Source: Minisyncoccia bacterium (GTDB taxonomy: Bacteria > Patescibacteriota > Minisyncoccia > Phycocordibacterales > UBA9973). Taken from it: DNA of 64,000 nt. Under the pieces are notes generated by a model, which saw only the letters and a list, made by a program, of their open reading frames with translations, was not told where the DNA came from and did not search any database. The stretch covers positions 15,312 to 79,311 of the forward strand of contig JBMOIO010000002.1 in assembly GCA_049317285.1 (NCBI GenBank), given 5' to 3'. Shown piece after piece: positions 15,247-62,100 of this stretch; position 1 is the first letter of the stretch, and each line of letters begins with the position of its first letter. Both the position numbers and the translations under genes were made by a program.

Positions 15247-15267
15247 GAGCGTAGTATAGCAGATTTT

Positions 15268-17043: not shown

Positions 17044-17044
17044 A

Positions 17045-17593: not shown

Positions 17594-17594
17594 A

Positions 17595-18128: not shown

Positions 18129-18136
18129 AAATCAAT

Positions 18137-18589: not shown

Positions 18590-18590
18590 A

Positions 18591-19796
18591 TTATTGAATA
18601 CTATCCATTAGCGAATACATTGGGGAGAGCATCGAGATTGCAAAAAATCCCACTGCCCCTCCGATAAAGATCATCAGTACCGGTTCAATAATAGTTGAAA
18701 GGTCTTTTGTTTTTGCATCAACTTCGGCTTCGTAAAATACAGCAATATCGAGAAGCATACTTGCAAGCTTCCCTGTTTCTTCCCCGACCGCCACCATCTC
18801 GCCGACCATCACCGGATAGAGATTCGTGTGCCGCTGCAGTACACTCGACATTGTTTCTCCCTTTTCGACCTGACTCTCAATTTCCGCAAGCACGGCCTTA
18901 TAGTAACTGTTTTGCAGCACATCCTTCGTAATACCGAGGGCCCGAGAAATACTCACTCCTGCAATCAGTAGGGATGAAAGGGTGCGGGCAGTGCGGGCGG
19001 CATTTACTTCCTGCACTAATACTCCCACAACTGGAATGCGAGTACTACTATAGTCTAAAAAGGTGCGAACTGCTGGGCGTTTCAGTGCGAAATACCCACC
19101 AGTCACTATCAGGGAAATACCAAGGAGGAGAAGGCCGATATGATTTGATATCATATCTGATACCCATACCACAATACGAGTTGAAGTAGGCAGATCCACA
19201 TTCAACTCCTTAAAGGTCTTTGTCAGTACAGGAACAATATAAATAAACATCAGTATGCCAATAATAAATATCGCGACAATAATAATTGCCGGATACATGA
19301 GTGCACTTTTGACCTTGCGGTTGAGATTGTAGCTCTTTTCAAGGTTCCCGCCGACCTCCATCAATGCTTCAGGTAATCCTCCTGACTCTTCTCCTGCCTT
19401 TACCATCGCAATAAAAAGACTTGAGAAAGTATTGGGGAACTTTGAAAGTGCGCTTGAAAAAGTCTCTCCATTATCAATACTTGCAATCAATGATTCAAAA
19501 ATTGTTTTAAAATAGCTGTTAGTGGTCTGTTTTTTCAAGACAACCAATGCTCGGGCAAGTGGAAGTCCTGCACGAAGCATGCCTGCGAGATTCTTTGTAA
19601 AAATAATCTTCTCACTGAGCTTAACCCGCTTCATCATACCGTCAAGCGTAAATGTTTTCTTCTTTTTTTCTACAACAGTGATAGGTGTAAGCCCCATCTC
19701 GCGCAGTGTAATTATCGCCTCGGTTTTACTGGACTCTTCTATCACCCCTTCGGTCATTGCGCCGGTTGCATTTCGAGCCGTATAAGAAAATACCAT
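18591..19796 (-). CDS. pilC: type IV pilus assembly platform protein PilC (GspF family)
   Basis: 401 aa; two GspF repeats; three TM segments. Confidence 0.85.
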   Translation of the reverse strand: MVFSYTARNATGAMTEGVIEESSKTEAIITLREMGLTPITVVEKKKKTFTLDGMMKRVKLSEKIIFTKNLAGMLRAGLPLARALVVLKKQTTNSYFKTIFESLIASIDNGETFSSALSKFPNTFSSLFIAMVKAGEESGGLPEALMEVGGNLEKSYNLNRKVKSALMYPAIIIVAIFIIGILMFIYIVPVLTKTFKELNVDLPTSTRIVVWVSDMISNHIGLLLLGISLIVTGGYFALKRPAVRTFLDYSSTRIPVVGVLVQEVNAARTARTLSSLLIAGVSISRALGITKDVLQNSYYKAVLAEIESQVEKGETMSSVLQRHTNLYPVMVGEMVAVGEETGKLASMLLDIAVFYEAEVDAKTKDLSTIIEPVLMIFIGGAVGFFAISMLSPMYSLMDSIQ

Positions 19797-19839
19797 ACAG
19801 TCAGTGTAACAAGGAGTGGGGTACTATGCTACCAGAGTA

Positions 19840-21585
19840 CTACTCGCTGACAACACGCAACACATCATCAATCGTTGTTTTTCCATGAACCGCTTGGAAT
19901 ATGCCGTCTTCGAGCATGGTCATCATCCCCTCTTTTTTTGCTTGTGCTTCCACTTCGTCGGCGGTACCATTGCGCAAAATGATTTCCTTAATGGCGGGCG
20001 TCACTTTCATTGCTTCGTGAATACCAATACGCCCTTTGTAGCCGTCTTCACTTTCTTCTGAAGGTTTTGGTTTATAAAAAGGAATCTTCTCCCATGGCGT
20101 TCCCTTTTCAATAACATTCTCGGATTCGAGAAACCCTCGCATTCGGTCGAGATCGAGAACATGCGTGAGTGAGGCTATTTCAGACGCTGAAAGAAAATAC
20201 TGCTCTTTAGCGGTAGTAAGTCGGCGCACTAACCGCTGGGCCAAAATTGCTTTTGCGGTCGAGACGATGAGAAACGGCTCAACACCCATATCAATCAAGC
20301 GCGGAATAGCGCCTGCGGCCGAATTGGTGTGGATAGTCGAGAGCACTAAGTGTCCGGTCAGAGCTGCGTTTACAGCAAGGTCTGCCGTTTCGCCGTCTCG
20401 CACCTCACCAACCATAATAATATTCGGATCCTGACGAAGTAGTGCGCGCAAACCGTTTGCAAACGTCATACCAATATCTGCCTTTACTTGCGTTTGATTG
20501 ATGCGTGGCATTTGGTATTCGATTGGGTCTTCGACTGTAGAAATATTTACTTCGGGGGTATTTAAAATATCCAACAATGTATAGAGTGTTGTTGTCTTAC
20601 CGCTCCCTGTCGGACCGGAAGCCAAAATGATGCCTGAGTGCTGACGCAATGCTTCATGAATCGCTTCAAGTCCGCTTCCATGAAAGCCAAGTCCCTCGAG
20701 CGTGAATCCGTGTGTACTCTCGCGCAAAATACGAATAACAGCTTTTTCACCATAGTAGGTAGGGATAGTGGACACGCGAAACGATACAGGCGCCTCGTCG
20801 AGCACTATTTTAAAGCGCCCATCCTGGGGCAAGCGCTTTTCATCGAGCTTGAGGTTTGAAAGCACTTTGATGCGCGCAGTAATCGCGGGCGCCGCCCCTT
20901 TCGGAAGCGTCATTGCATCGTGCAAGATACCGTCGATGCGGTAGCGGATAATCATTTCATTCTCCCCGGGCTCCATATGAATGTCCGATGCGCCTTGCAT
21001 GATTGCATGAGAAATAAGCGAGTCAACAATTTTGATTACCGGCAAGTCTTCTGCAAGCGCCTTGAGGTCTCCTTCAGATGCGTCAGCTTTTGCTTCAGGA
21101 ACAGCGTTCAGTGAAAGCGCTTCCTTTTGAATAATAGCCCCGAACTCCGCCTGCAGGCTTTTTCGGTACTGCTGCAAAACTGCCTTGATGGTCTCAGTGT
21201 CGGTGAGACGCGGCAAGATACGCAGCCCCGTTTTCTTTTTTATAAAGTCGATTACCGGCAGGTTGTCGATATCGAGGACCGCAATCTCCAAGTCGCTCCC
21301 CGACTTTTTGTACGCGACAATGTTATATCTACGCGCAATGGACTCCGGAATAAGCGCGAGAATGTCCGGGTCGAGACGCTCTTTCGTAAGCCCGATAAAC
21401 GGAATACCGAGTACATACGCTTCAAGGCGCTTGATTTCACTCTCCTTCACCTTTCCTTCGGTCAAAAGAAAATCTGAAAGCGATTGTGCGGTATTTTTCC
21501 GACGGTCATACGCTTCGATGTCGCCGAGGCTTGCAATGTTTGCATCGAGCACTAAATTGCGGAGTTTTGCTTGGTCGATTACCAT
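19840..21585 (-). CDS. pilB: type IV pilus assembly ATPase PilB (GspE family)
   Basis: 581 aa; Walker A GPTGSGKTTTLY, Asp box, Walker B, His box; N-terminal GspII_E domain. Confidence 0.9.
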   Translation of the reverse strand: MVIDQAKLRNLVLDANIASLGDIEAYDRRKNTAQSLSDFLLTEGKVKESEIKRLEAYVLGIPFIGLTKERLDPDILALIPESIARRYNIVAYKKSGSDLEIAVLDIDNLPVIDFIKKKTGLRILPRLTDTETIKAVLQQYRKSLQAEFGAIIQKEALSLNAVPEAKADASEGDLKALAEDLPVIKIVDSLISHAIMQGASDIHMEPGENEMIIRYRIDGILHDAMTLPKGAAPAITARIKVLSNLKLDEKRLPQDGRFKIVLDEAPVSFRVSTIPTYYGEKAVIRILRESTHGFTLEGLGFHGSGLEAIHEALRQHSGIILASGPTGSGKTTTLYTLLDILNTPEVNISTVEDPIEYQMPRINQTQVKADIGMTFANGLRALLRQDPNIIMVGEVRDGETADLAVNAALTGHLVLSTIHTNSAAGAIPRLIDMGVEPFLIVSTAKAILAQRLVRRLTTAKEQYFLSASEIASLTHVLDLDRMRGFLESENVIEKGTPWEKIPFYKPKPSEESEDGYKGRIGIHEAMKVTPAIKEIILRNGTADEVEAQAKKEGMMTMLEDGIFQAVHGKTTIDDVLRVVSE

Positions 21586-21671
21586 TCCTTACAGTATAGC
21601 AACAACAGTGGTTGTATGCGCAATAAAAAATTGCTTCTTATATAAATATAAGAAGCAATTTAAAAAAAATA

Positions 21672-22085
21672 CTATTTACCGAATGTTGCGCGTGCCCTTG
21701 TAGCGGCAGTGAGGACCATCGAGGTTTCAGTCAGTGTGGTGACATCATAGACATCCGGACTATCAACATCAACATCGATTTGTGTTTCATTGGCCATAAA
21801 CTTCCATTTACGATTTTTGACTGTTGCACCCTTTGCTATAGTAAGTGCTCCGCCCGTTTTGAACGTCCATACTTCGGCTGTGCCGAAATTATAATTAACC
21901 CATACACCATTCGAAAATTCTTCAACCTTGAGCAGTTTCCATGGCGTTGGGATAATGAGCTCGGTTTTTGTTTTTACAACAGGGGTCGTAGTATCCGGCT
22001 TTGTCGTATTGTCTTTACCACATGAAGCAATACCAACAAACAGTGCGATAAGGATGATCCATCCTTTGTTTAAAAGAGCTTTCAT
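21672..22085 (-). CDS. putative lipoprotein
   Basis: signal peptide with lipobox VGIASCG; 137 aa beta-rich. Confidence 0.5.
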   Translation of the reverse strand: MKALLNKGWIILIALFVGIASCGKDNTTKPDTTTPVVKTKTELIIPTPWKLLKVEEFSNGVWVNYNFGTAEVWTFKTGGALTIAKGATVKNRKWKFMANETQIDVDVDSPDVYDVTTLTETSMVLTAATRARATFGK

Positions 22086-22214
22086 ATTTATTTGTTTAAG
22101 TGTGAGAAATTAACGTTTTTTGAAGTCTAATAGAGATTCACCTATTTGTCAAGATTTTTTTGACTTTCTTCCAGCAATCAAAAACACCCCTGCTCGGGGT
22201 GTTTTTATATAGCA

Positions 22215-23474
22215 CTAGTCCTGAAAAATAATAAGGTTTGTCGCACTGTTGATATGGAAGTAGACGTATTCATCAGTTGCACCTCCGAAAGTGCGCTCTC
22301 GTGCTGCCCGCCCCTTAATCTTCCCATAAAACTCAATTGTGTCCCCTACATTTAGCGTTCGGCCATATGACTGATAGCTCACACTATAGGGCATTGTCGT
22401 ATACGGATCATCTTTTGCATCACGCCCGAAAGTCCAATTCCAATTACCCTCCTTGCAGGTATAGTTTGCCCAAGAGTATCCAGGAAAAGGATTATTATAT
22501 CCACCCTCATTACATTCTGTAAAGAAGTATGATCCTGCATTTGCCGTATCAAAATCCCCTTCCCACGCTACGCCCGATGGAAATTGAATAGGATCAGGAA
22601 GCGGATTAAAGGTTCCATTACTCTTATAGTCCCCCGGAGTAGGGAGCTTTGTTTCAACGCCGTTGATGTTTACATAAAAATCTACCCAGATACTAAACCG
22701 AGTGCGCTCAGTATCGCGAACAGTCAATTGTCCAGAGGAAGAAAAGTTAATATTGTATACACCCGCCTCTGTTACAGTCAGTACTTTACCACTCGCTCCT
22801 GGAGAAAGAGAGGTTGGGTGATAGGTTGAAATAGTACTACAGGTAGGACTAAGCATGCTTAAAGAAAACTTCATCAGGTTTGGATTGTAATTTTTGGTGG
22901 TGGGGAGTTCCCAAATCGCATTTGCAATATTGTGTGTCAACAGACATCTATTCCCTACAACTTGTTCTGTACAGTTCCCTGTCTTTATATTGCGCACATG
23001 CCCAAAAGGAACTGTTTCTTGGTTACCCGAAATGTTTCTGCACATATCTGGTACACAGAGGTTTATCACCCCATTAGCATCAGCACATAGCGCCTTGTTA
23101 CTGTCATTTGCCACGCGCTGATTTTGAATATAGCTATTTGCCAAAATATTTCCACTTACCGCAATGTTTCCCACTACACCACCAGCAGTACTTCCTACAG
23201 CAACAGTTGAATTAGTGTCTACAGGAGTACCTCCGCGCACCACACCTTGAAGCGAAAGCGTTTGCTCAAAAGAACTGTTTTGAGAAACAAGAAAATCTTG
23301 CACAGAAAGTCCACCGCTTTTTATCTGTGCAGGACCAACATGAACAGGGAGCGATTTATTTCCCGCATACAGATCAGCCGATGGAGCTGCCCACTGAGCA
23401 GTAACAGAAACACCAAAGGCAAATACGAGTCCGAAGGCGATATATTTAAGATTGGTGAGAAGTGTTTTTTTCAT
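22215..23474 (-). CDS. secreted G/S/T/N-rich surface protein, paralog 3 of a tandem family
   Basis: Sec signal MKKTLLTNLKYIAFGLVFAFG; shares the N-terminal region and the C(A)D..G...LC cysteine motif with the two upstream genes. Confidence 0.55.
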   Translation of the reverse strand: MKKTLLTNLKYIAFGLVFAFGVSVTAQWAAPSADLYAGNKSLPVHVGPAQIKSGGLSVQDFLVSQNSSFEQTLSLQGVVRGGTPVDTNSTVAVGSTAGGVVGNIAVSGNILANSYIQNQRVANDSNKALCADANGVINLCVPDMCRNISGNQETVPFGHVRNIKTGNCTEQVVGNRCLLTHNIANAIWELPTTKNYNPNLMKFSLSMLSPTCSTISTYHPTSLSPGASGKVLTVTEAGVYNINFSSSGQLTVRDTERTRFSIWVDFYVNINGVETKLPTPGDYKSNGTFNPLPDPIQFPSGVAWEGDFDTANAGSYFFTECNEGGYNNPFPGYSWANYTCKEGNWNWTFGRDAKDDPYTTMPYSVSYQSYGRTLNVGDTIEFYGKIKGRAARERTFGGATDEYVYFHINSATNLIIFQD

Positions 23475-23477
23475 AAA

Positions 23478-24233
23478 TTATTGGCAGCTGTTAAAGGTGA
23501 TGATAAACGATGGACTATCTTCGCTAAGTCCAAAGGCAGTCGCATTGTCGGAGAACGGGATTGGTGTTCCTGTATCTAAACACATCCAATTCATTGCAGT
23601 AATAGTATAACTTCCCAACGATACAACTGTCGGAACTGTGGTGTTGTTCACTGTATAGATTTGACCAGTAGCATTGTTTCGAATAGTAACAGCATCTCCT
23701 ACTTGGTTTGGTCTAAAAGAAATCAATACAGATCCCATTGGTTCTAGTGCTCCTGTCTCTGTAGTCCACACTGCAGGATCACACAACACAAGCGTTCCTG
23801 TTTCGTCGGCACATACTGCACCATCAGTAGGATTTGCGAGCGGATTGCTTTGCACCGTGTAATTAGTATTTGCCACGCCTCCTGAAACGGCAACATGTGT
23901 TGGCACTTCGACATTAGGACCTCCAAAACGAACAGTTCCTACTGTCGTACCAGGTGCACCCCCACGAAGCCCTCCTGTGAAGAAGGTTGTTCCATCAATC
24001 TGTGCGTTTGCAAGCGCGATAAACCATTCACCTATCGAAAGCGAGCCTGCCTTCACCTGATCAGTACTATTCACGTACACTGGTGTTGAGGCGTTATTGT
24101 TGGGGAATGAAGCACTCGGGCCGGAATAGGAATTGGTGAGCCCACCCCATGACGCATGTGCATAGCTTGCCCCCATAGCAAGAACAAGACCGAGAGCGAT
24201 GAATTTTAAATTAGTGAGAAGTGTTTTTTTCAT
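23478..24233 (-). CDS. secreted surface protein, paralog 2 of the tandem family
   Basis: MKKTLLTNLKFIALGLVLAMG signal; GGLRGGAPG; VCADETGTLVLC; C-terminal ITFNSCQ. Confidence 0.55.
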   Translation of the reverse strand: MKKTLLTNLKFIALGLVLAMGASYAHASWGGLTNSYSGPSASFPNNNASTPVYVNSTDQVKAGSLSIGEWFIALANAQIDGTTFFTGGLRGGAPGTTVGTVRFGGPNVEVPTHVAVSGGVANTNYTVQSNPLANPTDGAVCADETGTLVLCDPAVWTTETGALEPMGSVLISFRPNQVGDAVTIRNNATGQIYTVNNTTVPTVVSLGSYTITAMNWMCLDTGTPIPFSDNATAFGLSEDSPSFIITFNSCQ

Positions 24234-24242
24234 AAAAATAAT

Positions 24243-24986
24243 TTAACAGCTAAAGTTAAAGGTGATGGTGTATGAATCTCCGTCATTGAGAACAAAATCT
24301 GTTCCTCCTCCCCGGGTCATAACAGGGTCGTTTGTAGTGGTACACACTATATCCGTATTGGTGATGGTATAACTACCAATCGGCACCACTTTTCCAGTTG
24401 AAATGCCCATAGTGAATCCTGGAGCCATATCAAGTCTGTGCAACGATCCATCATTATTATTATTCACCATCACAAACGTACCAGTCTGCTGGGAGCCCTC
24501 AATATAAAAGTCTAGAGAGGCGCTTGGGGTTGCAGCCACAGGTGCCGGTGCAGCGGGGGCAGTAGAAGGAGAAGTGCAAAGGAAAAATGTTCCGTCTGCA
24601 TTAGCGCACACCGGTTTTTTCCCACCACCACTGACAAGAGAGTTTGACTGTATTGTTCCAAGAGTGCTGATAGAGCCGTTTATAGTAGTATTCACCCCGT
24701 AGCTACTGTTACCAATCGCAACCGTGTTTGATCCATCGCTCTGAATGTTGCCCCCTGTCACAACTCCTCCAGCAAATGTTTCTTGACTGAACAAAGCGTT
24801 TCCTCGAGCCTGAAATGTTGTTGTAGAAAATCCTCCTGCTTTATCTTGACTAAGCGCGCTCGTATTGATTGGTGCATCAGTGTTTGCGCCAAATGCTCCT
24901 GTTGTTGGAGGAGTGTAGGCTGAAACAGCGCCGGCAATGCCGAGAGCGAGACCAAGAGCGATAAGGCGGTAATGGATGAGTTTCAT
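24243..24986 (-). CDS. secreted surface protein, paralog 1 of the tandem family
   Basis: Sec signal; VCANADGTFFLC; C-terminal ITFNFSC; 10-nt spacing to next gene. Confidence 0.55.
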   Translation of the reverse strand: MKLIHYRLIALGLALGIAGAVSAYTPPTTGAFGANTDAPINTSALSQDKAGGFSTTTFQARGNALFSQETFAGGVVTGGNIQSDGSNTVAIGNSSYGVNTTINGSISTLGTIQSNSLVSGGGKKPVCANADGTFFLCTSPSTAPAAPAPVAATPSASLDFYIEGSQQTGTFVMVNNNNDGSLHRLDMAPGFTMGISTGKVVPIGSYTITNTDIVCTTTNDPVMTRGGGTDFVLNDGDSYTITFNFSC

Positions 24987-32541: not shown

Positions 32542-33513
32542 TTAGATTCGCATTCTTTGTCTGATTTCATACGTATCACCATGCATCAACAATCCGCGAT
32601 ACGAGTTAACCGTTTCCGACTTAGGATATCCCTTAAGCTTTTTGAATATCTTTCTCTTTGTGGTGGTTCGTATTTGACGATGATAGGGAAAATGTATCCA
32701 CCCAAGAAAATCGACACCTGTTGCGAATGTCTTGATGTACACTTTGTGCTCGTGCATTTGAAGCTTTAACTTTTCATTCAAGAAAGCATGGATTTTTTGA
32801 AGAATGCCTTCCAAGTATTCCTTTGTACTGGACAGTATGACAAAATCATCCGCATAGCGGATATAGTATGTTACTCGAAGCCCCTGCTTCATGAACATAT
32901 CAAATTCATGCATGTATACATTTACCAACAATTGAGAAGTAAGGTTTCCGAGCGGTAACCCCACTCCTTCTCTCGTCGTATGAAAACTTGAGGTAACTTC
33001 CCGGATGAGCCACAACAGTTCTTCATCCTCAACATGACGCTTCAAAATTAAAACAAGTATTTCATGATCGATACTTGCAAAGAATTTCTTGATGTCACAC
33101 TTGAGTACATAACATGTCCTCGTATTGTTCTTTGAAACCCTCAGGGCAAATTCCTGAAAACGATCAATTGCTCTGTGAGTTCCCTTGTTCACACGACATG
33201 AAAACGAGTCATGAATGAATCTCTGTTCAAAATAAGGATAAAGCGTCTTATATATTAAATGATGTAACAGTCTGTCTCGGACAATCGCCTTGTGGATATT
33301 CCGAGGCTTTGGGTCAGAGATATTAAAAGCCCAGTATGGCGCATGAGTGTACGTCCGACGGTGAAGCAAGGTGTGCAAGTCGACCAGGTTGTCCGAAAGT
33401 TTCGCCTGGTATTGTATGACATCTTTTTTATGTCGCTTTCCACGAAGAAAACGCTCCCAGGTAACAAGGAGGTTTTCCATCGATATGATATCTTTGTATT
33501 TATGAATCAGCAT
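32542..33513 (-). CDS. diversity-generating retroelement reverse transcriptase
   Basis: 323 aa; RT motifs 1-7 including YIRYADDFVIL and the DGR-specific LPLGNLTSQL (I/LGxxxSQ) in place of the group II QGxxxSP. Confidence 0.9.
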   Translation of the reverse strand: MLIHKYKDIISMENLLVTWERFLRGKRHKKDVIQYQAKLSDNLVDLHTLLHRRTYTHAPYWAFNISDPKPRNIHKAIVRDRLLHHLIYKTLYPYFEQRFIHDSFSCRVNKGTHRAIDRFQEFALRVSKNNTRTCYVLKCDIKKFFASIDHEILVLILKRHVEDEELLWLIREVTSSFHTTREGVGLPLGNLTSQLLVNVYMHEFDMFMKQGLRVTYYIRYADDFVILSSTKEYLEGILQKIHAFLNEKLKLQMHEHKVYIKTFATGVDFLGWIHFPYHRQIRTTTKRKIFKKLKGYPKSETVNSYRGLLMHGDTYEIRQRMRI

Positions 33514-33531
33514 ACATCAACCAATATCACA

Positions 33532-33544
33532 CCCCCCCCCCCCC
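33532..33544. repeat. C13/G13 homopolymeric tract
   Basis: 13 consecutive C on plus strand, 19 nt upstream of the RT start codon and inside the 5' region of the Avd-like frame. Confidence 0.9.
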
Positions 33545-33560
33545 GACACAAACTCCTCTT

Positions 33561-33908
33561 GTCCTTGTCAGAGCGAAGGAAAGTTATGAAGTTTGGCATA
33601 AGCACTTAGTAAACATAAACCGTGTAGACAGATACACCATCGGTGCAAAAATTGACGAGGTATTTCTTTCCTTGCTTGAAAATATTTTTAGAGGTATCTA
33701 TGCTCACGACAAATTTGAGAAGTTATCTGTGGTATCACAGTCACTCGGGAAAAATGATTTATTGAAATTCTTCTTGCAGATCGGTTGGGAACAAAAAGTT
33801 GTTGACCATAAAATCTATGGTGCTTTAATCCTTAAACTTGATGAAGTAGGACGAATGCTCAACGGCTGGAAGAAAAATCTTCAAGAAAAAACTCCCACTA
33901 ACAAGTAG
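33561..33908 (+). CDS. Avd-like four-helix-bundle protein (23S rRNA IVS-protein / bAvd family); start codon uncertain
   Basis: frame continuous from ~33546 to 33908 (..ESYEVWHKHLVNINRVDRY..IGWEQKVVDHKIYGALILKLDEVGRMLNGWKKNLQ); ORF track gives only 33672..33908 from a TTG; no in-frame ATG; opposite strand to RT, TR and target. Confidence 0.45.
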   Translation, partial: VLVRAKESYEVWHKHLVNINRVDRYTIGAKIDEVFLSLLENIFRGIYAHDKFEKLSVVSQSLGKNDLLKFFLQIGWEQKVVDHKIYGALILKLDEVGRMLNGWKKNLQEKTPTNK

Positions 33909-33928
33909 TGAGAGAAATCAAATAAGTA

Positions 33929-34046
33929 GCAGAAGCAAAGGATGCAGTTGTCAGAATTCCAAGTCTTGGAGAAGTTCCCGAGGTTGAAGTTCCAGTCACC
34001 GTCCGAGTTGCGGTTCACGTTAGGCACCCTGTGGTTGCCATCCGAG
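33929..34046 (-). repeat. DGR template repeat (TR)
   Basis: ~118 bp homologous to the 3' end of the target gene; minus-strand sense is AAC-codon rich (..GNH..PNVNRNS..WNFNLGNFS..WNSDNC..). Confidence 0.85.
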
Positions 34047-34298
34047 TACACGCAAGCAGTGTACGATGGGTCATCCGTCCCACCGAAACCAGCGCGTGCC
34101 AATTTCTGCATTTTACTTGGAGCAACAATAGTTCTATCGAGCTCACGGACGCATCGCACCGACTAATTTGTTTTTTCATAAGAGGAGGTACCGAACTGCA
34201 AAGACATACCCGACAGTTTCTCACGAATACCCCTTACGAGATTTCGATGCCATGAAGCCGTAACCACATGATCGTATCTACTATCCTTGTGCAGTATA

Positions 34299-34331
34299 AA
34301 TAAAAAAGGGCCTTTGCAAAAGCAAAGGCCC
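34299..34331 (-). terminator. strong hairpin + T-run downstream of the DGR target gene (terminator and/or DGR target-proximal hairpin)
   Basis: gggcctttgc-aaaa-gcaaaggccc 10-bp GC stem; minus strand is followed by TTTTTTATTTAT; lies ~60 nt 3' of VR. Confidence 0.75.
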
Positions 34332-34384
34332 AGTAAAGGTTCAAAGGAACAAATAACATGTTTATGTGGCAAATGACCAAAGGT

Positions 34385-35107
34385 CTATTTGTCGCAGAAG
34401 CAAAGGATGCAGTCGCCAGAACCCCAAGGCCCGGAGAAGTACCCGAGGCCGAAGCCCCAGCCACCGCCCGAGCCGCGGTACACGTCAGGCACCCTGTGGT
34501 CGCCAACCGAGTCGCTCCATAATGTGTCTTTTTCATCGAAGGAAACCGTCCATTTTTCTACCGGAAATTCATCCGCCTTAAGGTCTTGTGCCAGAGTTAA
34601 ACCCTGACCGCCGACCAGAATGGCGCGCTGTTTTTTCAGGAAGTTCATGCAGTCTTCGCTCGATACCGTTTCCAGAACAGGGAAGATTTTTACAAGATAG
34701 GTTTTTCCGGGCTCCAGTTTGTTCGTAGCGTTCTCATAATTCGAACTTTTTAATGCATCATTGTAATGATAAGTCGTTTTCAGCTTTTTTGTCTTTTTAC
34801 CGAACTGGTCGATCTGTTTGTCATCATCATAATCCATTGGAACGGTCAGATCGAATTCAACAAGAGCCGGACCAAACCGTTGATCGATAACGGCAAGCTT
34901 TTTGAGCTTTCCGATAACAAATTCTTTGAAGCCGTTTTGCAGCAAGTCACCTTTTTCAATGATTTCCTGCGCTTCTTCTTTTGAAAAGTTGAAGGTTTCG
35001 AGATCAATGGCGCTTATGCCATCTTCGAGGAAACGTCTAAGGAAACGTCTAATTTGTTTGCGTTGTCCATCTGTCATTAATTCCGGGTGCGTGATCTGGT
35101 TAGTCAT
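34385..35107 (-). CDS. DGR target protein with C-terminal variable region
   Basis: 240 aa; the C-terminal 40 aa (..GDHRVPDVYRGSGGGWGFGLGYFSGPWGSGDCILCFCDK) correspond to TR with substitutions only at template A positions. Confidence 0.85.
   Translation of the reverse strand: MTNQITHPELMTDGQRKQIRRFLRRFLEDGISAIDLETFNFSKEEAQEIIEKGDLLQNGFKEFVIGKLKKLAVIDQRFGPALVEFDLTVPMDYDDDKQIDQFGKKTKKLKTTYHYNDALKSSNYENATNKLEPGKTYLVKIFPVLETVSSEDCMNFLKKQRAILVGGQGLTLAQDLKADEFPVEKWTVSFDEKDTLWSDSVGDHRVPDVYRGSGGGWGFGLGYFSGPWGSGDCILCFCDK
34394..34512 (-). repeat. DGR variable repeat (VR)
   Basis: ~21 mismatches to TR over ~118 bp, every one at a plus-strand T of TR (A in sense orientation); 19-nt invariant 3' end. 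Confidence 0.85.
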
Positions 35108-39691: not shown

Positions 39692-39823
39692 GTGTTACAC
39701 ACAGCATAAAGCCACTATCGTTACACAAATGATAGTGGTTTTATCTTTTCTTTAGAATTTCTTCATGAAACCTTCATCTCACAACAGATACGAACACTAA
39801 GAATGGAGGCGATTTAAGAGAAG

Positions 39824-42562
39824 GTGCGGTACAATATACGCATGCCTCCACACGGAAACGATACAGAAAAGTTCACTACCCCTTCAGCTGAACTTGCGCA
39901 CCTCAGTGACCGCGCTCACAAAGAGTACATTCTCCAAAATGAAGCGCACAAAACACTTGAGGATGCTGCACGCGCTTCAGTCGAGTCTTATGCTCGCGCT
40001 GAAGCGCGCGACTTTTTACACGAAACAACTGTTCTTCCAAAACACGAAACAGAAAGTCTTGTGCTCAAACTCAAGCCCGAAGCTCATGACACAAAAATGG
40101 AAGAGCTCTTTGGCATCATGCTCTCCAAAGGAGTAAAGAATGCGCTCGACGTGGTAAAACAGATGAACGACTCACATCTCGAAGACGACTTCCATCGATT
40201 CTTGGTGCAGTATCTCCACACGATCGGCGCATTGCCCGGAATAAAAGAATCCTCTTCACTCTACAAAGAACTCGAACACTCACTCTTCACTGTCACTCTT
40301 CCACCGCGAACCGACACTGCTGACTTCAAATCATTCATCCAGGCGATGAAGCAATTTTATGCTGGCATGCTTGCCTTGTGCGAAAATTCAAAATCATACT
40401 ACACGCTCGAACTTGCCGTACAAAACCATGGGCGCGATATTGCACTCTATGCTTCTGTTCCTCGCGTACACGAACAGACATTTGAAAAACTCGTGAGCTC
40501 CTACTACCCTGGAGCGAGTATTGAAGAAGTAGTCGACGACTACAATATTTTCACCATCGAAGGAAACGGTATTGCGGCTTCAACTGCGCAGTTGAGCGAG
40601 CCCGCGATTTTTCCGCTCGCAAGCGATGAGTCATTTTCTCATGACCCCCTTGTCGCACTCATCGGCTCACTTTCAAAACTAGAACAACAAGGCGAAGGCG
40701 CAGCTATTCAGGTCACTATCGCGGCAGACACAGCAAACAGCAACCGCCTCTATACTTCCATCATTGACGCGGCACAACAGGGCGATGTTGAAGTAAAAAA
40801 ACAGTACAAAGAACTGACCGAAGGAATGCTCACCAGTCTCGGCAAAGGAGTGCTTTCATTTTTCACTACAGATACTCCAAAAGAATCAGACTCAACAAAA
40901 GAAAAAGTTGTCGATACCCGAGGTATTGAACTTGCGCGGATAAAAAATCAAAGCCAATCCTTGAAAGCGGGCATCCGCATTATTACCGCCGCGCCGACAC
41001 TTCTTCGCGCACAAGCGATGCTTTCTTCAATAAAAACATCGTTTGCACAATATGCATTGGTTGAGAGTAATTCAATCAAATGGAACGACATTGCAACAGC
41101 CCGCATTCATGCTGTTGCACGCGACTTTTCATTCCGCACCATCAATGATGCTGAGCTGATGACACTTTCAGTCAACGAACTCGCGACACTCTTTCACTTC
41201 CCTGTCGGCCTTACTGCCGCAAGCGAATTGAAAGAAGTCACAACCGCAAGCGCACCCGCTCCAAGTACTATGCAAAATAGCGGCGGCGTCTACCTCGGCA
41301 CCAACACTTATCGCGGCACCACTACCGATATTTTTCTTTCAAAAGAAGACCGGGTCCGCCACTGCTATGTCGTCGGTCAGACCGGTACCGGTAAGACCAC
41401 CATTTTAAAAAACATGGTGATACAGGATATTAAAAACGGCAACGGCGTGTGCTTCATCGACCCGCACGGAAGCGACCTGCAAGATATTCTTGCAAACATC
41501 CCCCCTGAGCGACTCGACGATGTCATCTACTTTGACCCGGCATACACCGAGCGCCCGATGGGGCTCAATATGCTCGAATACGATGTGCGCTTCCCTGAGC
41601 AAAAGATTTTTGTTATCAACGAACTGATGGGTATCTTCAACAAGCTCTTTGACATGAAAACAGCGGGCGGCCCGATGTTTGAGCAGTACTTCAGAAACTC
41701 GGCCGGACTTGTCATGGAAGACCCCGAAAGCGGTTCCACCCTCCTTGAAATCGGGCGCGTCCTTTCCAATAAAGCATTCCGGGAAATGAAACTTTCGAAA
41801 TGCAAAAACCCGATTATCAAACAGTTCTGGGAAAATGCAGAGAAAACCACCGGCGAAGCATCCTTGGCAAACTTTGTGCCCTACATCACCAACAAGTTCG
41901 ACGTCTTTATTTCAAACGACATCATGCGCCCAGTGATTGCACAGCAACACAGTGTGTTGAACTTCCGTGACATCATGGACAACAAAAAAATTCTTTTGGT
42001 AAATCTCTCCAAAGGGCGCCTGGGCGACATCAACTCGCACCTCATCGGTCTCGTCCTCGTCGGCAAGCTCACGATGGCAGCACTCTCCCGTGTGGACATG
42101 GTCGGCCGCGGACCGATCAACGACTTCTACCTCTACATCGATGAGTTCCAAAATGTGACCACTGACTCGATTGCGACCATTCTCTCTGAAGCCCGCAAAT
42201 ACCGCCTCGCGCTCACTGTCGCTCACCAGTACATTGAACAGCTCGAAGAAAACATCAAAGACGCAGTGTTCGGAAATGTGGGCTCTATGATCATCTACCG
42301 TGTCTCCCCTGAAAATGCGGCAATGTTTGAAAAGCAATTGTCGCCGACATTTACACCAAACGATATCCTCACCCTCCAAAACTTTAATGCTATCGCAAAA
42401 ATATTGGTAAATGGTGTTCCGGAAAAGCCGTTCAACCTCCGCATTCCTCCCCCACCAGTCGGAAACATGGAGATCACCGAAAAGGTCAAACAACTCTCAT
42501 ACCTCAAATACGGCCGCCCTCGCGCCGAAGTCGAAGCCGAAATCTTCGCACGGTATAAATAG
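39824..42562 (+). CDS. soluble P-loop ATPase with TraD/VirD4/TraG-type (T4SS coupling-protein-like) C-terminal half and a ~500-aa unknown N-terminal domain
   Basis: Walker A VVGQTGTGKTT; Walker B/TraG-D_C-like FYLYIDEFQNV...ARKYRLALTVAHQYIEQL...GSMIIYRVSPENA; no TM segments. Confidence 0.6.
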   Translation: MRYNIRMPPHGNDTEKFTTPSAELAHLSDRAHKEYILQNEAHKTLEDAARASVESYARAEARDFLHETTVLPKHETESLVLKLKPEAHDTKMEELFGIMLSKGVKNALDVVKQMNDSHLEDDFHRFLVQYLHTIGALPGIKESSSLYKELEHSLFTVTLPPRTDTADFKSFIQAMKQFYAGMLALCENSKSYYTLELAVQNHGRDIALYASVPRVHEQTFEKLVSSYYPGASIEEVVDDYNIFTIEGNGIAASTAQLSEPAIFPLASDESFSHDPLVALIGSLSKLEQQGEGAAIQVTIAADTANSNRLYTSIIDAAQQGDVEVKKQYKELTEGMLTSLGKGVLSFFTTDTPKESDSTKEKVVDTRGIELARIKNQSQSLKAGIRIITAAPTLLRAQAMLSSIKTSFAQYALVESNSIKWNDIATARIHAVARDFSFRTINDAELMTLSVNELATLFHFPVGLTAASELKEVTTASAPAPSTMQNSGGVYLGTNTYRGTTTDIFLSKEDRVRHCYVVGQTGTGKTTILKNMVIQDIKNGNGVCFIDPHGSDLQDILANIPPERLDDVIYFDPAYTERPMGLNMLEYDVRFPEQKIFVINELMGIFNKLFDMKTAGGPMFEQYFRNSAGLVMEDPESGSTLLEIGRVLSNKAFREMKLSKCKNPIIKQFWENAEKTTGEASLANFVPYITNKFDVFISNDIMRPVIAQQHSVLNFRDIMDNKKILLVNLSKGRLGDINSHLIGLVLVGKLTMAALSRVDMVGRGPINDFYLYIDEFQNVTTDSIATILSEARKYRLALTVAHQYIEQLEENIKDAVFGNVGSMIIYRVSPENAAMFEKQLSPTFTPNDILTLQNFNAIAKILVNGVPEKPFNLRIPPPPVGNMEITEKVKQLSYLKYGRPRAEVEAEIFARYK

Positions 42563-42604
42563 AAAACAAAAAGAGTCCTCCTGCAAGGGCTCTTTTTGTT
42601 TTAG

Positions 42605-43354
42605 GTGCGCTATACTATCACTATGAATATATTTGAAGGATTTTTTGGCTCAAAAAAAGAGCGTGTTTCAGAAGAAAACGAAGTAGCGACAGCAGTAGAA
42701 GAAACTGCTTCCGCACCAAAAACACTTGAATCAATACAAGAGGCAAAAGAGTCCCTTGCCGAGCTTTCCGAGAAGCGCCAAGAAGTCCTTGAAAAACACC
42801 GCGACACTACAGAACAACTCGCATCCCTAGGAGTTCGTGAAATCGAAAAAGATGGCCACGCACGGACCGAAACCTATAACGAAATGCTTAACCCTATCGA
42901 AGCAGAGCTCGCCGCCATCAGTGCCGAGATTGGCGAAAAGCGCGCGGAGTTTGATCTGGAGCCTTCCCGAGCGACAATGCTCGAAGACCGTATGCGCCGA
43001 TTGGAAGAGTTGAAAGTCCAAGAAGAAGCGCAATTTGCCGAGACTGAGGTTTCGAAACAAATCGCCACATATAATAAAGAAATTGATGCGCTCACTGAAG
43101 AAATCGCGACACTGGGCAATAAAAGAATCAGTGGTGACCTTAGGATAACAGAGGCGGAACTGCTCCAAAAAAAGGAGATTGAACGAAATGACATAGACCA
43201 GAAAAAATCAGATCTCTATCGTGATGACAAAATAGCCAACGCTCATACTGAGCGCCTGCAGAAAATTCAGGAATTGAGTACTATCACCTATTTTACCAAG
43301 AAAAACGCCGAAGATGCCTCGTACGACGAAAACGGGCAAATGAGAATTAAGTAA
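42605..43354 (+). CDS. coiled-coil hypothetical protein
   Basis: 249 aa, Glu/Lys/Ala-rich heptad-like sequence. Confidence 0.4.
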   Translation: MRYTITMNIFEGFFGSKKERVSEENEVATAVEETASAPKTLESIQEAKESLAELSEKRQEVLEKHRDTTEQLASLGVREIEKDGHARTETYNEMLNPIEAELAAISAEIGEKRAEFDLEPSRATMLEDRMRRLEELKVQEEAQFAETEVSKQIATYNKEIDALTEEIATLGNKRISGDLRITEAELLQKKEIERNDIDQKKSDLYRDDKIANAHTERLQKIQELSTITYFTKKNAEDASYDENGQMRIK

Positions 43355-54956: not shown

Positions 54957-56462
54957 ATGGCATTTGCTTCCATTCAAAGCGCGCAGATCACCGGGCTTGG
55001 CGCACAAGGAGTCATTGTTGAAGTCGACATTAGCAGAGGGTTGTACCTCTTTCAAATTGTGGGCCTGCCCGACAAGGCGGTAGAAGAGAGCCGCGAGCGA
55101 GTGATCAGTGCGCTACGAAACAATCTTGAAAAAAACCCCAAGAGCGAAAACCACAAAGTTATCGTTTCCTTGTCACCAGCAGAACTCAAAAAAGAAGGGG
55201 CGTACTTCGACCTTGCGATTGCTGTTGGCTACCTTGTTGCAACCGAACATATAACAGCTGACACTGCGGACAAGCTCTTTATGGGAGAGCTTTCACTCAG
55301 TGGTGAGGTCCGGCCAGTACGAGGACTTCTTTCGATTGCACTATGGGCGAAAAACAGTGGCATTACAGAATTATTTATACCACAAGCAAATGAAAGCGAA
55401 GCGGCATTGATTGAAGGACTTACCTTTTATCTCGTACCGACCATCAAGGCGCTTGTATTTCATCTCGCGGGCGAGCAGCAACTTTCAACCGTAGTGTTTG
55501 ATACAACACGAGCTACCACCAATACAGTGCGAACAGATTTTGGCGATGTGCGCGGACAGCCGGGTGCAAAGCGCGCACTGACGATTGCAGCAGCGGGAGG
55601 GCACAATATCGTCTTGTATGGCCCACCAGGAACCGGCAAGACAATGCTCGCAAAAGCATTTCACGGCATTATGCCAGACCTTACCAACGAACACTTTTTA
55701 GAAGTTGCCATGATCTATTCTTCTGTCGGACTAGTTGGCGACGCACTCCACGGGAGACCTCCTCTGCGTGCACCGCACCATAGCGCAAGCCATGTTGCGA
55801 TTATCGGCGGTGGTTCAACAATCCGCCCAGGAGATATCACGATGGCTCACCGAGGACTCTTGTATCTTGATGAATTCCCGGAATTTGATAGGCGGGTGAT
55901 TGAAGCACTGCGCGAACCATTGGAAGAGGGAAGTATCACTGTTGCTCGAGCCAAAGGCTCGGTACGGTATCCCGCAAAATTTATCCTGCTTGCCGCCATG
56001 AATCCGTGCCCGTGCGGATACCGCGGAAGCGGCGTCAAACCGTGTTCGTGCAGTGGTGTTGAGATAGCGCGCTATAAAAAGAAATTGTCAGGGCCGATTA
56101 TCGACCGCATAGATCTCTGGGTCCCCGTTCATCATGTCGAATACGAAACATTGCACGAGAGTAATACGCTTTCCGAGAGTGAAACTATTAAAAAGACTAT
56201 TGAAGCACTTCGCGCCAAACAATATACCCGTCTTAATAAACTCAACTGCGACCTTTCGACTACTGAGGTGCAATCGAAAAGCAATTTGTCAGCCGAAGCA
56301 AAAACGATTCTTCAGCGTTCTGCTGAAACGCTCAAGCTCTCACCACGCGTGTATTTGCGCACCATCAAAGTAGCACGCACGATAGCGGATATGGAGAGGA
56401 GCAACACTATCGAACCGCCCCACATCCTCGAAGCCCTGCAATACCGCCCGAAGTTTGAGTAA
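54957..56462 (+). CDS. YifB/ComM family Mg-chelatase-like AAA+ ATPase
   Basis: N-terminal Lon-like domain; Walker A YGPPGTGKTMLA; Cys-rich segment CPCGYRGSGVKPCSC. Confidence 0.85.
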   Translation: MAFASIQSAQITGLGAQGVIVEVDISRGLYLFQIVGLPDKAVEESRERVISALRNNLEKNPKSENHKVIVSLSPAELKKEGAYFDLAIAVGYLVATEHITADTADKLFMGELSLSGEVRPVRGLLSIALWAKNSGITELFIPQANESEAALIEGLTFYLVPTIKALVFHLAGEQQLSTVVFDTTRATTNTVRTDFGDVRGQPGAKRALTIAAAGGHNIVLYGPPGTGKTMLAKAFHGIMPDLTNEHFLEVAMIYSSVGLVGDALHGRPPLRAPHHSASHVAIIGGGSTIRPGDITMAHRGLLYLDEFPEFDRRVIEALREPLEEGSITVARAKGSVRYPAKFILLAAMNPCPCGYRGSGVKPCSCSGVEIARYKKKLSGPIIDRIDLWVPVHHVEYETLHESNTLSESETIKKTIEALRAKQYTRLNKLNCDLSTTEVQSKSNLSAEAKTILQRSAETLKLSPRVYLRTIKVARTIADMERSNTIEPPHILEALQYRPKFE

Positions 56463-61208: not shown

Positions 61209-62096
61209 GTGAATACACCCTCTCTTCCAAGCAAGCAATTTTTAATCCGGGGCGGCATTGCCACAGGTATTGTTGTAATTATTTTAGTAGTGCAGACTAA
61301 CTGGTTCCAAGGCCTATTCAATAGAAAGGGGACACTTAGTGTAACTGATATAACAATAGGAGACTTGGTTGCTCAAGACTCCAATCAAAACGGCATTCCC
61401 GACTGGGAAGAAAAGCTTTGGGGGCTTGACCCGACAGAGCTCTACACAGGCGACATGTCCAACAGGGAAATCATCGACAATAAAAAGAGAGCGCTCGGAC
61501 TCACCGTCCAAGAGGATGCCGAGCTCAACGAAACTGACCGCCTGGCACGAGAACTCTTTAGTATTACAGCGGCAATAGGGAATTCGGGGCAATCGAGTAC
61601 TGAAGCCTTAAGTACTACCGCAGCCCAGCTCGGCGCTTCTGTTGACCGAAAAGATATCATTGACCCGTATACCCTTCGAAGCATCAAAACAATCCCGACC
61701 TCTCGACAATCCCTTGTTACCTATAAAAATACTGCTGAGAAAATTTTGGATACGTACTCCGTGGAGCAGGCTGACTTTCGCGTAGTGGTCGAAGGCCTCG
61801 AAACAGGAGACTTTACCCGGCTTCCTGAACTTGAAGCAACAGCCGTCTCCTATAAACAGCTTGCAAAAGAGATGGCAGGGATTTCAGCGCCGATTGGCGT
61901 GGCTCAGCACCACCTCGATATAGTCAACAGCTTTGCGGGCATTGCAAACTCCTTTATATACCTTAAAGAGATGGATTCCAACAGTATTGAAGGATTCAAG
62001 GGAATTGCGCTCTATAAAAACAATGCACTTCGACTTGAAAGCGCGGCCGAAGATTTGAACCTTTATTTGACAGAATACGGTATACTACAGCCATAA
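61209..62096 (+). CDS. membrane-anchored hypothetical protein
   Basis: single N-terminal TM (GIATGIVVIILVVQ); 295 aa. Confidence 0.4.
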   Translation: MNTPSLPSKQFLIRGGIATGIVVIILVVQTNWFQGLFNRKGTLSVTDITIGDLVAQDSNQNGIPDWEEKLWGLDPTELYTGDMSNREIIDNKKRALGLTVQEDAELNETDRLARELFSITAAIGNSGQSSTEALSTTAAQLGASVDRKDIIDPYTLRSIKTIPTSRQSLVTYKNTAEKILDTYSVEQADFRVVVEGLETGDFTRLPELEATAVSYKQLAKEMAGISAPIGVAQHHLDIVNSFAGIANSFIYLKEMDSNSIEGFKGIALYKNNALRLESAAEDLNLYLTEYGILQP

Positions 62097-62100
62097 CTTT

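What the first reader, a model, noticed from the sequence alone, without database searches (positions are those of the whole stretch)
39824..43354. Soluble TraD/VirD4-type ATPase with a 500-aa unassignable N-terminal domain plus a downstream coiled-coil protein: candidate uncharacterised two-gene system
The C-terminal half has Walker A GQTGTGKTT and the TraG-D_C/T4SS-DNA-transfer signature (YIDEFQNV...RKYRLALTVAHQ...IIYRVSP). There are no TM helices and no adjacent T4SS or pilus genes. The N-terminal 500 aa match nothing I recognise. HerA/TraD-like ATPases coupled to novel effector domains are a recurring theme in DNA-translocation and anti-phage systems, and the 249-aa coiled-coil partner is co-directional 42 nt downstream.
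Basis: partly seen in the sequence, partly recalled or inferred. Interest (0 to 1): 0.6.

Follow-up and report, generated by a model that had tools for sequence, protein, structure and literature searches.

The report
Orphan conjugation-type ATPase with fused partner

Summary
Both ORFs and all quoted motifs are present. The true starts are probably ATG 39842 (906 aa) and ATG 42623 (243 aa). ORF A has no TM helix and no T4SS genes nearby.

The two-gene reading fails. ORF B is absent from 80 of 80 species-level relatives. It is separated from A by two genes in a 91%-identical relative and missing in an 82% one. A strong hairpin terminator lies between A and B.

ORF A belongs to a large Patescibacteria family, annotated as Pfam DUF8128 plus a T4CP-type P-loop domain. 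It sits among housekeeping genes: trigger factor, ClpP and RNase Y here, and secY-adk-map / ndk in about 40 other species.

A confident AlphaFold model shows DUF8128 resembles the N-terminal domain of VirB4. The C-terminal domain superposes on TrwB/VirD4.

The new point concerns residues 10-134. They are homologous to a separate small gene that lies immediately upstream of TM-anchored ~800-aa relatives (hhalign 97.5%, E 8e-12). So the window carries a fused, anchor-less form of a real "small partner + ATPase" pair.

Function is untested. My best inference is a housekeeping polymer (probably DNA) translocase derived from conjugation machinery. A defence role is not supported.

The parts
39842..42562 (+). 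Gene A: 906-aa soluble DUF8128 + T4CP-type ATPase (the ORF is open from GTG 39824; the called start is ATG 39842)
39869..40243 (+). Residues 10-134: helical N-terminal module (motif KG[IV]xNAL...PHxxDDFHRFLVxY), homologous to the separate small ORF found immediately upstream of the TM-anchored relatives; i.e. a fused partner
   Evidence: hhalign 94.8% / E 5e-8 and 97.5% / E 7.9e-12 over 124 columns; HMM dichotomy in 83 loci
40259..41206 (+). Residues ~140-455: DUF8128 (PF26449), an alpha/beta domain whose predicted fold resembles the N-terminal domain of VirB4/TrwK
   Evidence: AF2 pLDDT 86, pTM 0.79; Foldseek PDB top 13 hits all TrwK/VirB4, E 1e-6 to 5e-4; BFVD Bacillus phage G gp156 E 3e-17; precomputed Pfam
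41279..42559 (+). Residues ~480-906: TrwB/VirD4-like P-loop motor domain with a helical insert (residues ~586-700)
   Evidence: Pfam and NCBIfam hits; Foldseek TrwB TMt 0.64-0.69, rmsd ~5 A
41375..41398 (+). Walker A GQTGTGKT (G512-T519; G512, Q513, T514, G515, G517, K518 invariant in 95 sequences)
42134..42154 (+). Walker B region YIDEFQN (D767, E768 invariant). It is followed by SEARKYRL...AHQ (R785, K786, Q796 invariant)
42563..42602 (+). Perfect 17-bp hairpin flanked by an A run and a U run (terminator-like in both directions) between A and B
   Evidence: dG -22.8 kcal/mol, z -5.2, 0 of 200 shuffles reach it
42623..43354 (+). ORF B: 243-aa Glu-rich hypothetical protein. Adjacent to A but NOT a conserved partner; listed only because the finding included it

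Best explanation
Gene A is the fused, anchor-less form of a vertically inherited ATPase that is widespread in Patescibacteria and belongs to the VirB4/VirD4 branch of the FtsK-HerA superfamily. It has three modules. Residues 10-134 are a small helical partner protein. Residues ~140-455 are DUF8128, a domain resembling the VirB4 N-terminal domain. Residues ~480-906 are a TrwB/VirD4-like P-loop motor with all catalytic residues conserved. In other Patescibacteria orders the first module is a separate 115-181-aa gene. It lies immediately upstream of a ~780-850-aa protein that carries one N-terminal TM helix before DUF8128. In the window's lineage the two genes fused and the TM helix was lost. These points are shown: the domain identities, the fusion, the conservation, the housekeeping neighbourhoods, and the lack of any link to ORF B. 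The following is inferred: the protein forms a ring (hexamer) that uses ATP to translocate or remodel a polymer, most probably DNA, with DUF8128 and the fused partner acting as a docking or regulatory module. On this reading it serves a constitutive cellular role derived from monoderm conjugation machinery (nucleic-acid uptake, processing or segregation), not conjugation or phage defence.
For: Family and conservation: 240 listed homologues at 47-100% identity, all from Patescibacteria sources where named, and 80 of 80 GTDB species loci are Patescibacteria. Walker A, Walker B, R785/K786 and Q796 are invariant in 95 sequences. Fold: the N-terminal model has pLDDT 86, and all top 13 PDB hits are TrwK/VirB4. 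For the full-length model the best hits are whole VirB4 chains (E 1.8e-14, ~900 aligned columns), followed by TrwB at TMt 0.64-0.69. Fusion: hhalign of 31 small upstream ORFs against 95 full-length proteins gives 97.5%, E 7.9e-12, with small-protein residues 14-141 matching A residues 10-134. In 83 loci, 29 proteins carry the module internally and have no TM helix (KD19 <= 1.25), whereas 31 TM-bearing proteins have it as a separate gene, 28 of them directly upstream within 0-181 nt on the same strand. Context: the window and its close relatives have NusA, PPase, trigger factor, ClpP and RNase Y before A and HU after it. About 40 other species have rpsH...secY-adk-(AA_kinase)-map before A, and ndk-(CYTH)-(HD)-beta-CASP nuclease-SLOG after it. 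Only 1 of 164 loci has a second ATPase-domain paralogue within 6 kb. Literature: 5,713 VirD4-like T4CP homologues were found in 2,918 Patescibacteria genomes, only 148 of them near virB4. The homologue in Ca. S. epibionticum was not essential although the T4SS genes were, and the authors raise exaptation (PMC12102498). The same DUF8128 + ATPase architecture occurs in Bacillus phages, which have no T4SS (PHROG 5156, E 1.5e-77).
Against: No experiment bears on function. The substrate (DNA, protein or other) is a guess based on the superfamily. TM-scores to VirB4 are low (0.3), so the similarity of the N-terminal domain rests on Foldseek E-values and the consistency of the hits, not on a tight superposition. 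In a B. subtilis plasmid a distant homologue (23% identity) sits beside a relaxase-like gene and Tcp-type transfer genes, so a T4SS-linked role is plausible for the family. I could not check whether the window's genome encodes a T4SS elsewhere. Gene order in small, compact genomes is weak evidence for function.
Confidence: 0.55

Rival explanations
1. It is the working coupling protein (T4CP) of a Patescibacteria T4SS encoded elsewhere in the genome. It would dock on the channel in trans and feed substrates (DNA or proteins) to it during epibiotic growth.
For: The motor domain is TrwB-like. Pfam T4CP families score just over threshold. A distant B. subtilis plasmid homologue lies next to a relaxase-like gene and TcpE/VirB4-like genes. 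T4CP genes are often distant from virB4 (PMC12102498). The VirB4-NTD-like domain could contact VirB3- or VirB8-like parts.
Against: No TM anchor. There are no T4SS genes in 164 loci or in the 64-kb window. Relaxases are almost absent from Patescibacteria, and the S. epibionticum T4CP homologue was dispensable while the T4SS was essential. Phage homologues work without a T4SS.
Confidence: 0.25
2. It is an FtsK/HerA-like chromosome segregation or DNA-repair translocase that acts on the cell's own DNA.
For: It belongs to the same superfamily; HerA and HerA-NurA are among the structural hits. It is a core gene in housekeeping operons. A XerC/D-like recombinase gene lies in the same window.
Against: There is no FtsK gamma or HerA HAS-barrel domain and no NurA-like neighbour. 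At least some Patescibacteria (TM7x) already have FtsK (papers). The ancestral form has a VirB4-type N-terminal domain and a single TM helix, unlike FtsK.
Confidence: 0.1
3. One reading: a two-gene anti-phage or conflict system made of the ATPase plus the downstream coiled-coil protein.
For: HerA/VirD4-like ATPases occur in defence systems. PADLOC mad8 matches at 9.5e-15 over the P-loop core. ORF B has a weak Abi_C hit below threshold (E 0.004). A DGR lies 5 kb upstream.
Against: B is not conserved with A (0 of 80 loci), and a terminator lies between them. The flanks are housekeeping genes, not a defence island. A shows 43-100% identity across a whole bacterial class, with synteny that tracks relatedness, which is unlike the patchy distribution of defence genes.
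Confidence: 0.03
4. It is a decaying remnant of an integrated conjugative element or prophage.
For: It has homologues on plasmids and in phages. An RT gene and a tyrosine recombinase gene are in the window.
Against: The reading frame is intact and the catalytic residues are invariant in 95 sequences. GC content is the same as the flanks. The chromosomal position is conserved across species. The RT belongs to a DGR, not to a mobile element carrying A.
Confidence: 0.03

Closest known systems
TrwB / VirD4 type IV coupling proteins (R388 TrwB, PDB 1E9S/1GKI; Cagbeta 8DOL; DotL 6SZ9)
   Same: The C-terminal 430 residues share the fold (Foldseek TMt 0.64-0.69, rmsd ~5 A). Walker A, Walker B and the RK...HQ motifs are shared. 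Pfam TrwB_AAD_bind, TraG-D_C and T4SS-DNA_transf score above threshold. There is a helical insert between Walker A and Walker B.
   Different: No TM domain. There is an extra ~480-residue N-terminal region. No relaxase or T4SS genes are nearby. It is a chromosomal core gene. NCBIfam TraD models score 41-60 bits against cut-offs of 366-648. Sequence matches to TrwB in the PDB cover only the Walker A stretch (E 1.7e-4).
VirB4 / TrwK (R388; PDB 7O42, 7O43, 8RTD)
   Same: Two-domain layout with the Walker A motif about 500 residues in. The DUF8128 model's best PDB matches are the VirB4 N-terminal domain. The full-length model's best hits are whole VirB4 chains (E 1.8e-14).
   Different: TM-scores are only ~0.3. 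TIGR00929 VirB4_CagE scores 24 bits against a cut-off of 643. The motor domain is closer to T4CPs than to VirB4. There are no VirB3/B6/B8 neighbours.
Pfam PF26449 (DUF8128) proteins; NCBI 'TraM recognition domain-containing protein' / 'type IV secretory system conjugative DNA transfer family protein' of Patescibacteria
   Same: This is the family the window's protein belongs to. The identical protein is already in GenBank under the second name.
   Different: Those names say nothing about the VirB4-NTD-like fold, the split and fused forms, or the loss of the TM helix. Function is unknown, and no paper in the library mentions DUF8128.
PHROG 5156, Bacillus phage proteins (phage G gp156, TP-84, SPO1-like 'VirD4 component-like') and the Bacillus subtilis plasmid 'DUF87 domain-containing protein'
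   Same: The same DUF8128-like + ATPase architecture over residues ~141-904 (PHROG 5156 E 1.5e-77; tblastn 21-26% identity over 70-79% of the query; fold E 3e-17).
   Different: They lack the N-terminal partner module. They are carried by mobile elements. The plasmid copy sits beside a relaxase-like gene and transfer genes. All are uncharacterised.
CagZ-Cagbeta (a small helical regulator bound to a T4CP; PDB 8DOL)
   Same: This is an analogy only: a small all-helical protein paired with a T4CP-type ATPase, as in the split form of this family.
   Different: No homology was tested or claimed, and the binding site is unknown here.

Membership tests
VirD4/TrwB-type coupling protein (T4CP) | P-loop nucleotide-binding domain with the T4CP sequence signature | tested here: met
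   Pfam TrwB_AAD_bind 26.8 bits (cut-off 20.5), TraG-D_C 22.4 (22), T4SS-DNA_transf 20.2 (20.1). Fold TMt 0.64-0.69 to TrwB.
VirD4/TrwB-type coupling protein (T4CP) | N-terminal transmembrane anchor | tested here: not met
   Highest KD19 is 1.53, inside the ATPase core. Split-form relatives have one N-terminal TM helix.
VirD4/TrwB-type coupling protein (T4CP) | Curated equivalog or subfamily model (NCBIfam TraD, CD1115) | tested here: not met
   SXT_TraD 59.6 bits vs 366; TOL_TraD 40.8 vs 648; CD1115 31.9 vs 250.
VirD4/TrwB-type coupling protein (T4CP) | Genetic linkage to a relaxase and/or mating-pair-formation genes | tested here: not met
   None in the window or in 163 related loci.
VirD4/TrwB-type coupling protein (T4CP) | Recruits substrates to a T4SS channel | not testable with these tools
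   Needs genetics or biochemistry.
VirB4 | N-terminal domain plus C-terminal ATPase domain, ~800 aa | tested here: met
   Foldseek matches: N-domain E 1e-6, full length E 1.8e-14 over ~900 columns. TM-scores are only ~0.3.
VirB4 | Curated VirB4 models (TIGR00929; NF045975) | tested here: not met
   24.4 bits vs 643; 29.9 vs 590.
VirB4 | Encoded with VirB3/VirB6/VirB8-type membrane components | tested here: not met
   Neighbours are housekeeping genes.
Pfam DUF8128 (PF26449) | Match to the family model | tested here: inconclusive
   The precomputed annotation lists PF26449 for the identical protein and for most homologues. The local Pfam copy gave no hit on residues 1-494 even at E 10, probably because it lacks the model.
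Known anti-phage defence systems (PADLOC) | Match to a system's proteins plus the system's partner genes | tested here: not met
   Only P-loop-level hits (mad8, HerA). ORF B and ORF C have no meaningful hit. There are no partner genes.
HerA / FtsK translocases | HAS-barrel (HerA) or alpha/beta/gamma motor with multi-TM N-terminus (FtsK) | tested here: not met
   HerA_C 13 bits and FtsK_SpoIIIE 14.7 bits, both below cut-off and covering the Walker A region only. HerA structural hits rank below VirB4 and TrwB.

The most novel reading that the evidence does not exclude
Patescibacteria have turned a conjugation-type motor into a core, T4SS-independent housekeeping machine. This could be the cytoplasmic engine for importing or processing foreign nucleic acid that these nucleotide-auxotrophic cells live on. 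The small partner protein would be its adaptor, and in Paceibacteria it has become a free cytoplasmic enzyme by fusing with the adaptor and losing the membrane anchor. The recurrent position between adk/UMP-kinase-like/map and ndk/CYTH/HD/beta-CASP nuclease/SLOG genes would then reflect a nucleotide-salvage module.
Probability: 0.25. Interest if true: 0.75.

Novelty: new variant of a known kind. Interest (0 to 1): 0.45.

Why it matters
Patescibacteria carry about two VirD4-like genes per genome, almost never next to a T4SS, and nobody knows what they do (PMC12102498). This work adds three points for one large subfamily.

- It has a domain map: a VirB4-like N-terminal domain plus a TrwB-like motor.
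- It has a conserved protein partner, revealed by a gene fusion.
- There is a natural experiment in which the membrane anchor was lost.

Together these make the question testable. One can ask whether the partner binds the ATPase, whether DNA stimulates the ATPase, and whether presence of the gene tracks the T4SS, ComEC or neither. The result also removes a false lead, namely a defence pair with ORF B.

Tried and rejected
1. ORF B as a partner. tblastn against 80 species loci and four close relatives shows it is not conserved.
2. A defence role. PADLOC gives only P-loop hits.
3. A T4SS hidden at the window's end near ksgA, since the 2025 paper reports virB4 near ksgA. The 295-, 787-, 367- and 1220-aa genes after ksgA have no Walker A motif. 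They have signal-peptide-like N-termini and no family hits, so they are not VirB4.
4. A second paralogue in the window. None was found.
5. The other small upstream ORFs of a third ATPase subtype (cluster 13) and clusters 93, 67 and 14. None is homologous to the partner module (hhalign probability <3%).
6. The ~800- and ~1100-aa proteins and the small proteins upstream of TM-type genes. NCBIfam finds no family for them, and I did not scan them against Pfam myself. The small DUF5663 proteins nearby come from the precomputed Pfam annotation.
8. A profile search of PDB sequences gave only Walker-A-level hits.
9. The literature has no paper mentioning DUF8128.
Full report
OBSERVATION. Gene calls on the identical public contig begin at in-frame ATGs. 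A runs 39842-42562 (906 aa; GenBank MFZ4500081.1, [quoted passage not shown], Minisyncoccia MAG). B runs 42623-43354 (243 aa; hypothetical). All quoted motifs are present.

A has no hydrophobic segment that could span a membrane (highest KD19 1.53, inside the P-loop core). Its C-terminal half just passes the Pfam thresholds for TrwB_AAD_bind, DUF87, TraG-D_C and T4SS-DNA_transf. It hits NCBIfam TraD, VirD4 and VirB4 models far below their cut-offs.

The window is a Patescibacteria chromosome segment. Around A lie NusA, pyrophosphatase, a reverse transcriptase, trigger factor, ClpP and RNase Y. After A come B, a small membrane protein on the other strand, HU, the CCA-adding enzyme, a Xer-like recombinase and S15. 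A type IV pilus cluster lies at 14-25 kb. There is no second VirB4/VirD4-like ATPase in the window. The large genes after ksgA at the window's end are secreted proteins without P-loops.

THE A-B PAIR IS NOT A SYSTEM. I fetched 80 species-representative loci encoding relatives of A. All are Patescibacteria, mostly Paceibacteria groups such as Nomura-, Taylor-, Kaiser-, Yonath- and Zambryskibacteria. B is detectable in none of them.
- In a relative with 91% identity in A, a B homologue (86% identity) is present but two other genes lie between it and A.
- In an 82% relative, B is absent and HU follows A after one opposite-strand gene.
- In the two closest GTDB species (64-66% identity), HU directly follows or precedes A.

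Between A and B lies a perfect 17-bp hairpin flanked by A and U runs (dG -22.8 kcal/mol, z -5.2). B's ATG is preceded by a TATACT -10-like hexamer. B therefore looks like a lineage-specific gene in a variable spot between A and HU.

WHAT A IS. A belongs to a large, well-conserved family. Two searches each listed their best 120 homologues, at 65-100% and 47-58% identity. Nearly all are ~900-930 aa and most carry the precomputed Pfam domain PF26449, DUF8128. The N-terminal 484 residues alone match 690 cluster representatives at 50% identity.

In 95 aligned sequences the following are invariant: Walker A (G512, Q513, T514, G515, G517, K518), Walker B (D767, E768), R785/K786 and Q796. This points to an active enzyme under purifying selection.

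An AlphaFold2 model of residues 1-484 is confident (pLDDT 86, pTM 0.79). Its 13 best PDB matches are all TrwK/VirB4 of plasmid R388 (E 1e-6 to 5e-4), although TM-scores are only ~0.33. The next hits are unrelated ferredoxin-like proteins at E > 3e-3. The full-length model (pLDDT 84) matches whole VirB4 chains best (E 1.8e-14, ~900 aligned columns). Its C-terminal domain then matches TrwB at TMt 0.64-0.69 and rmsd ~5 A, followed by Cagbeta, DotL and HerA.

So the protein has the two-domain layout of VirB4 with a motor domain closer to coupling proteins. By sequence it is far from every solved structure.

A HIDDEN PARTNER. Aligning distant relatives showed that ~800-aa members replace A's first ~140 residues with a single N-terminal TM helix. 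These TM-type proteins occur in other Patescibacteria groups, including Moran-, Portnoy- and Azambacteria. In three such loci, a 123-139-aa ORF lies directly upstream. Its C-terminal motif (KGV..AV....Y.LDEFHD.L.D.LY) resembles A's KGVKNALDVV...HLEDDFHRFLVQYL. Profile-profile comparison confirmed this at 94.8%, E 5e-8.

I then analysed 83 loci: those three plus 80 fetched with the TM-type profile. An iterated HMM of the module gives a clean split.
- 29 proteins of ~900-1035 aa carry the module internally, mostly at about residues 70-145, and lack any TM helix (KD19 <= 1.25).
- 31 loci have the module as a separate 115-210-aa gene (one BLAST cluster). In 28 of them it lies directly upstream, same strand, gap 0-181 nt, of a ~780-850-aa protein. 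For 23 of the 24 whose N-terminus I could score, that protein starts with a TM helix (KD19 mostly > 2); the exception is probably a mis-called start.

With 31 small proteins against 95 full-length proteins, hhalign gives 97.5%, E 7.9e-12 over 124 columns. The whole small protein (residues 14-141) aligns to A residues 10-134. This is a Rosetta-stone fusion. A conserved two-gene unit does exist in the family (small helical partner + anchored ATPase). In the window's lineage the two have fused into one soluble polypeptide. Some TM-type subgroups have other, non-homologous small upstream ORFs.

CONTEXT AND DISTRIBUTION. The neighbours of the fused form are housekeeping genes everywhere. In about 40 of the 80 species loci, A follows rpsH-rplF-rplR-rpsE-rplO-secY-adk-(amino-acid-kinase-family)-map. 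It precedes ndk, CYTH, HD, a beta-CASP metallo-beta-lactamase nuclease and a SLOG protein, with rplT/infC beyond them. TM-type genes sit near GtrA-like and dnaX genes, glycosyltransferases and DUF5663 proteins. Only 1 of 164 loci has a second ATPase-domain paralogue within 6 kb. No relaxase or recognisable T4SS gene was seen.

Outside Patescibacteria, distant homologues covering DUF8128 plus the ATPase (21-26% identity) occur on Bacillus, Clostridium and Streptomyces plasmids. In a 64-kb B. subtilis plasmid the homologue lies directly before a replication-relaxation gene and Tcp-type transfer genes. They also occur in Bacillus and Geobacillus phages. PHROG 5156 (unknown function) matches residues 141-904 at E 1.5e-77. 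Phage G gp156 matches the N-domain fold at E 3e-17.

LITERATURE. Quinonero-Coronel et al. 2025 (PMC12102498) counted 5,713 VirD4-type T4CP homologues in 2,918 Patescibacteria genomes, only 148 of them near virB4. They found very few relaxases. They noted that the T4CP homologue of Ca. S. epibionticum was dispensable in Tn-seq while the T4SS genes were essential, and they raised possible exaptation. No paper in the library mentions DUF8128. Orphan T4CP-like genes in this phylum are therefore already known. The VirB4-like N-terminal domain, the split/fused partner and the anchor loss are, as far as I could find, undescribed.

MECHANISM (inferred). By homology with VirB4, VirD4, FtsK and HerA rings, the protein most likely forms a hexamer that couples ATP hydrolysis to moving or remodelling a polymer, with DNA the default candidate. 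DUF8128 and the partner module would provide docking or regulation, as the VirB4 N-terminal domain contacts VirB3/VirB8 and as CagZ regulates Cagbeta (analogies only). Constitutive, core-gene contexts, the lack of T4SS linkage, the loss of the anchor and the phage homologues all favour a T4SS-independent cellular role. The plasmid homologue and the folds keep a trans-acting T4CP role alive as the main rival. Defence and mobile-element-remnant readings are poorly supported.

VERDICT. It is a new variant of a known kind, of moderate interest.

Noticed in passing
window 32542-35107 (- strand): A diversity-generating retroelement. The reverse transcriptase gene (RVT_1) is at 32542-33513. A 122-nt template repeat is at 33926-34047, and its variable copy at 34391-34512 forms the 3' end of a 240-aa ORF (34385-35107). 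Of 21 mismatches, 20 are at adenines of the template.
   Followed up: partly
window 14494-24986 (- strand): A type IV pilus or competence-pilus cluster: PilB-like ATPase (19840-21585), PilC-like platform protein (18591-19796), prepilin-like genes, and several unannotated genes, adjacent to tpi and pgk.
   Followed up: no
window 54957-56462 (+): A ComM/YifB-type Mg-chelatase-like AAA+ protein (competence-associated helicase family), followed by a LysM-M23 peptidase gene and a UvrD-type helicase gene.
   Followed up: no
window 61209-64000 (+), continuing in L003 16253-21506: After ksgA comes a run of large genes (295, 787, 367, >1220 aa) with signal-peptide or TM-like N-termini, no Walker A and no family hits. 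They are probably surface or secreted proteins. I checked them because virB4 is often near ksgA in Paceibacteria; they are not VirB4.
   Followed up: yes
L117, L123, L142, L143, L163, L165, L168 (about 6 kb into each locus): A third subtype of the TM-type DUF8128 ATPase (795-935 aa) has a different conserved ~165-aa upstream ORF with a C-terminal WLxIIPGINKFFL motif. Two of these seven loci (L117, L165) also have a conserved ~200-aa downstream ORF; the same downstream ORF follows related ATPases in L116, L118, L146 and L164, where the upstream ORF is missing. Neither ORF is homologous to the partner module.
   Followed up: partly
L086 (B. subtilis plasmid NZ_OX419568.1) 6111-8852: A 913-aa 'DUF87 domain-containing protein' with the same DUF8128-like + ATPase layout and no obvious TM helix. 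It lies directly upstream of a replication-relaxation family gene and Tcp-type transfer genes, i.e. in the coupling-protein position of a putative conjugation module, on a plasmid typed as non-mobilizable.
   Followed up: partly
window 39810-39845 and 42600-42625: Both A and B have a -10-like hexamer (TACAAT, TATACT) ending 7 nt before the ATG, within a shared GGTGCG.TA.A.TAT...ATG context, and no clear Shine-Dalgarno sequence. This suggests very short-leader or leaderless transcripts.
   Followed up: no
L088 7121-7429; L089 6444-6755 and 7033-7347: Small DUF5663 proteins (~102 aa), sometimes duplicated, recur just upstream of the partner + TM-type ATPase pair in 6 loci (in a 7th they lie downstream), often after an ~800-aa protein with no Pfam family on record.
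   Followed up: no
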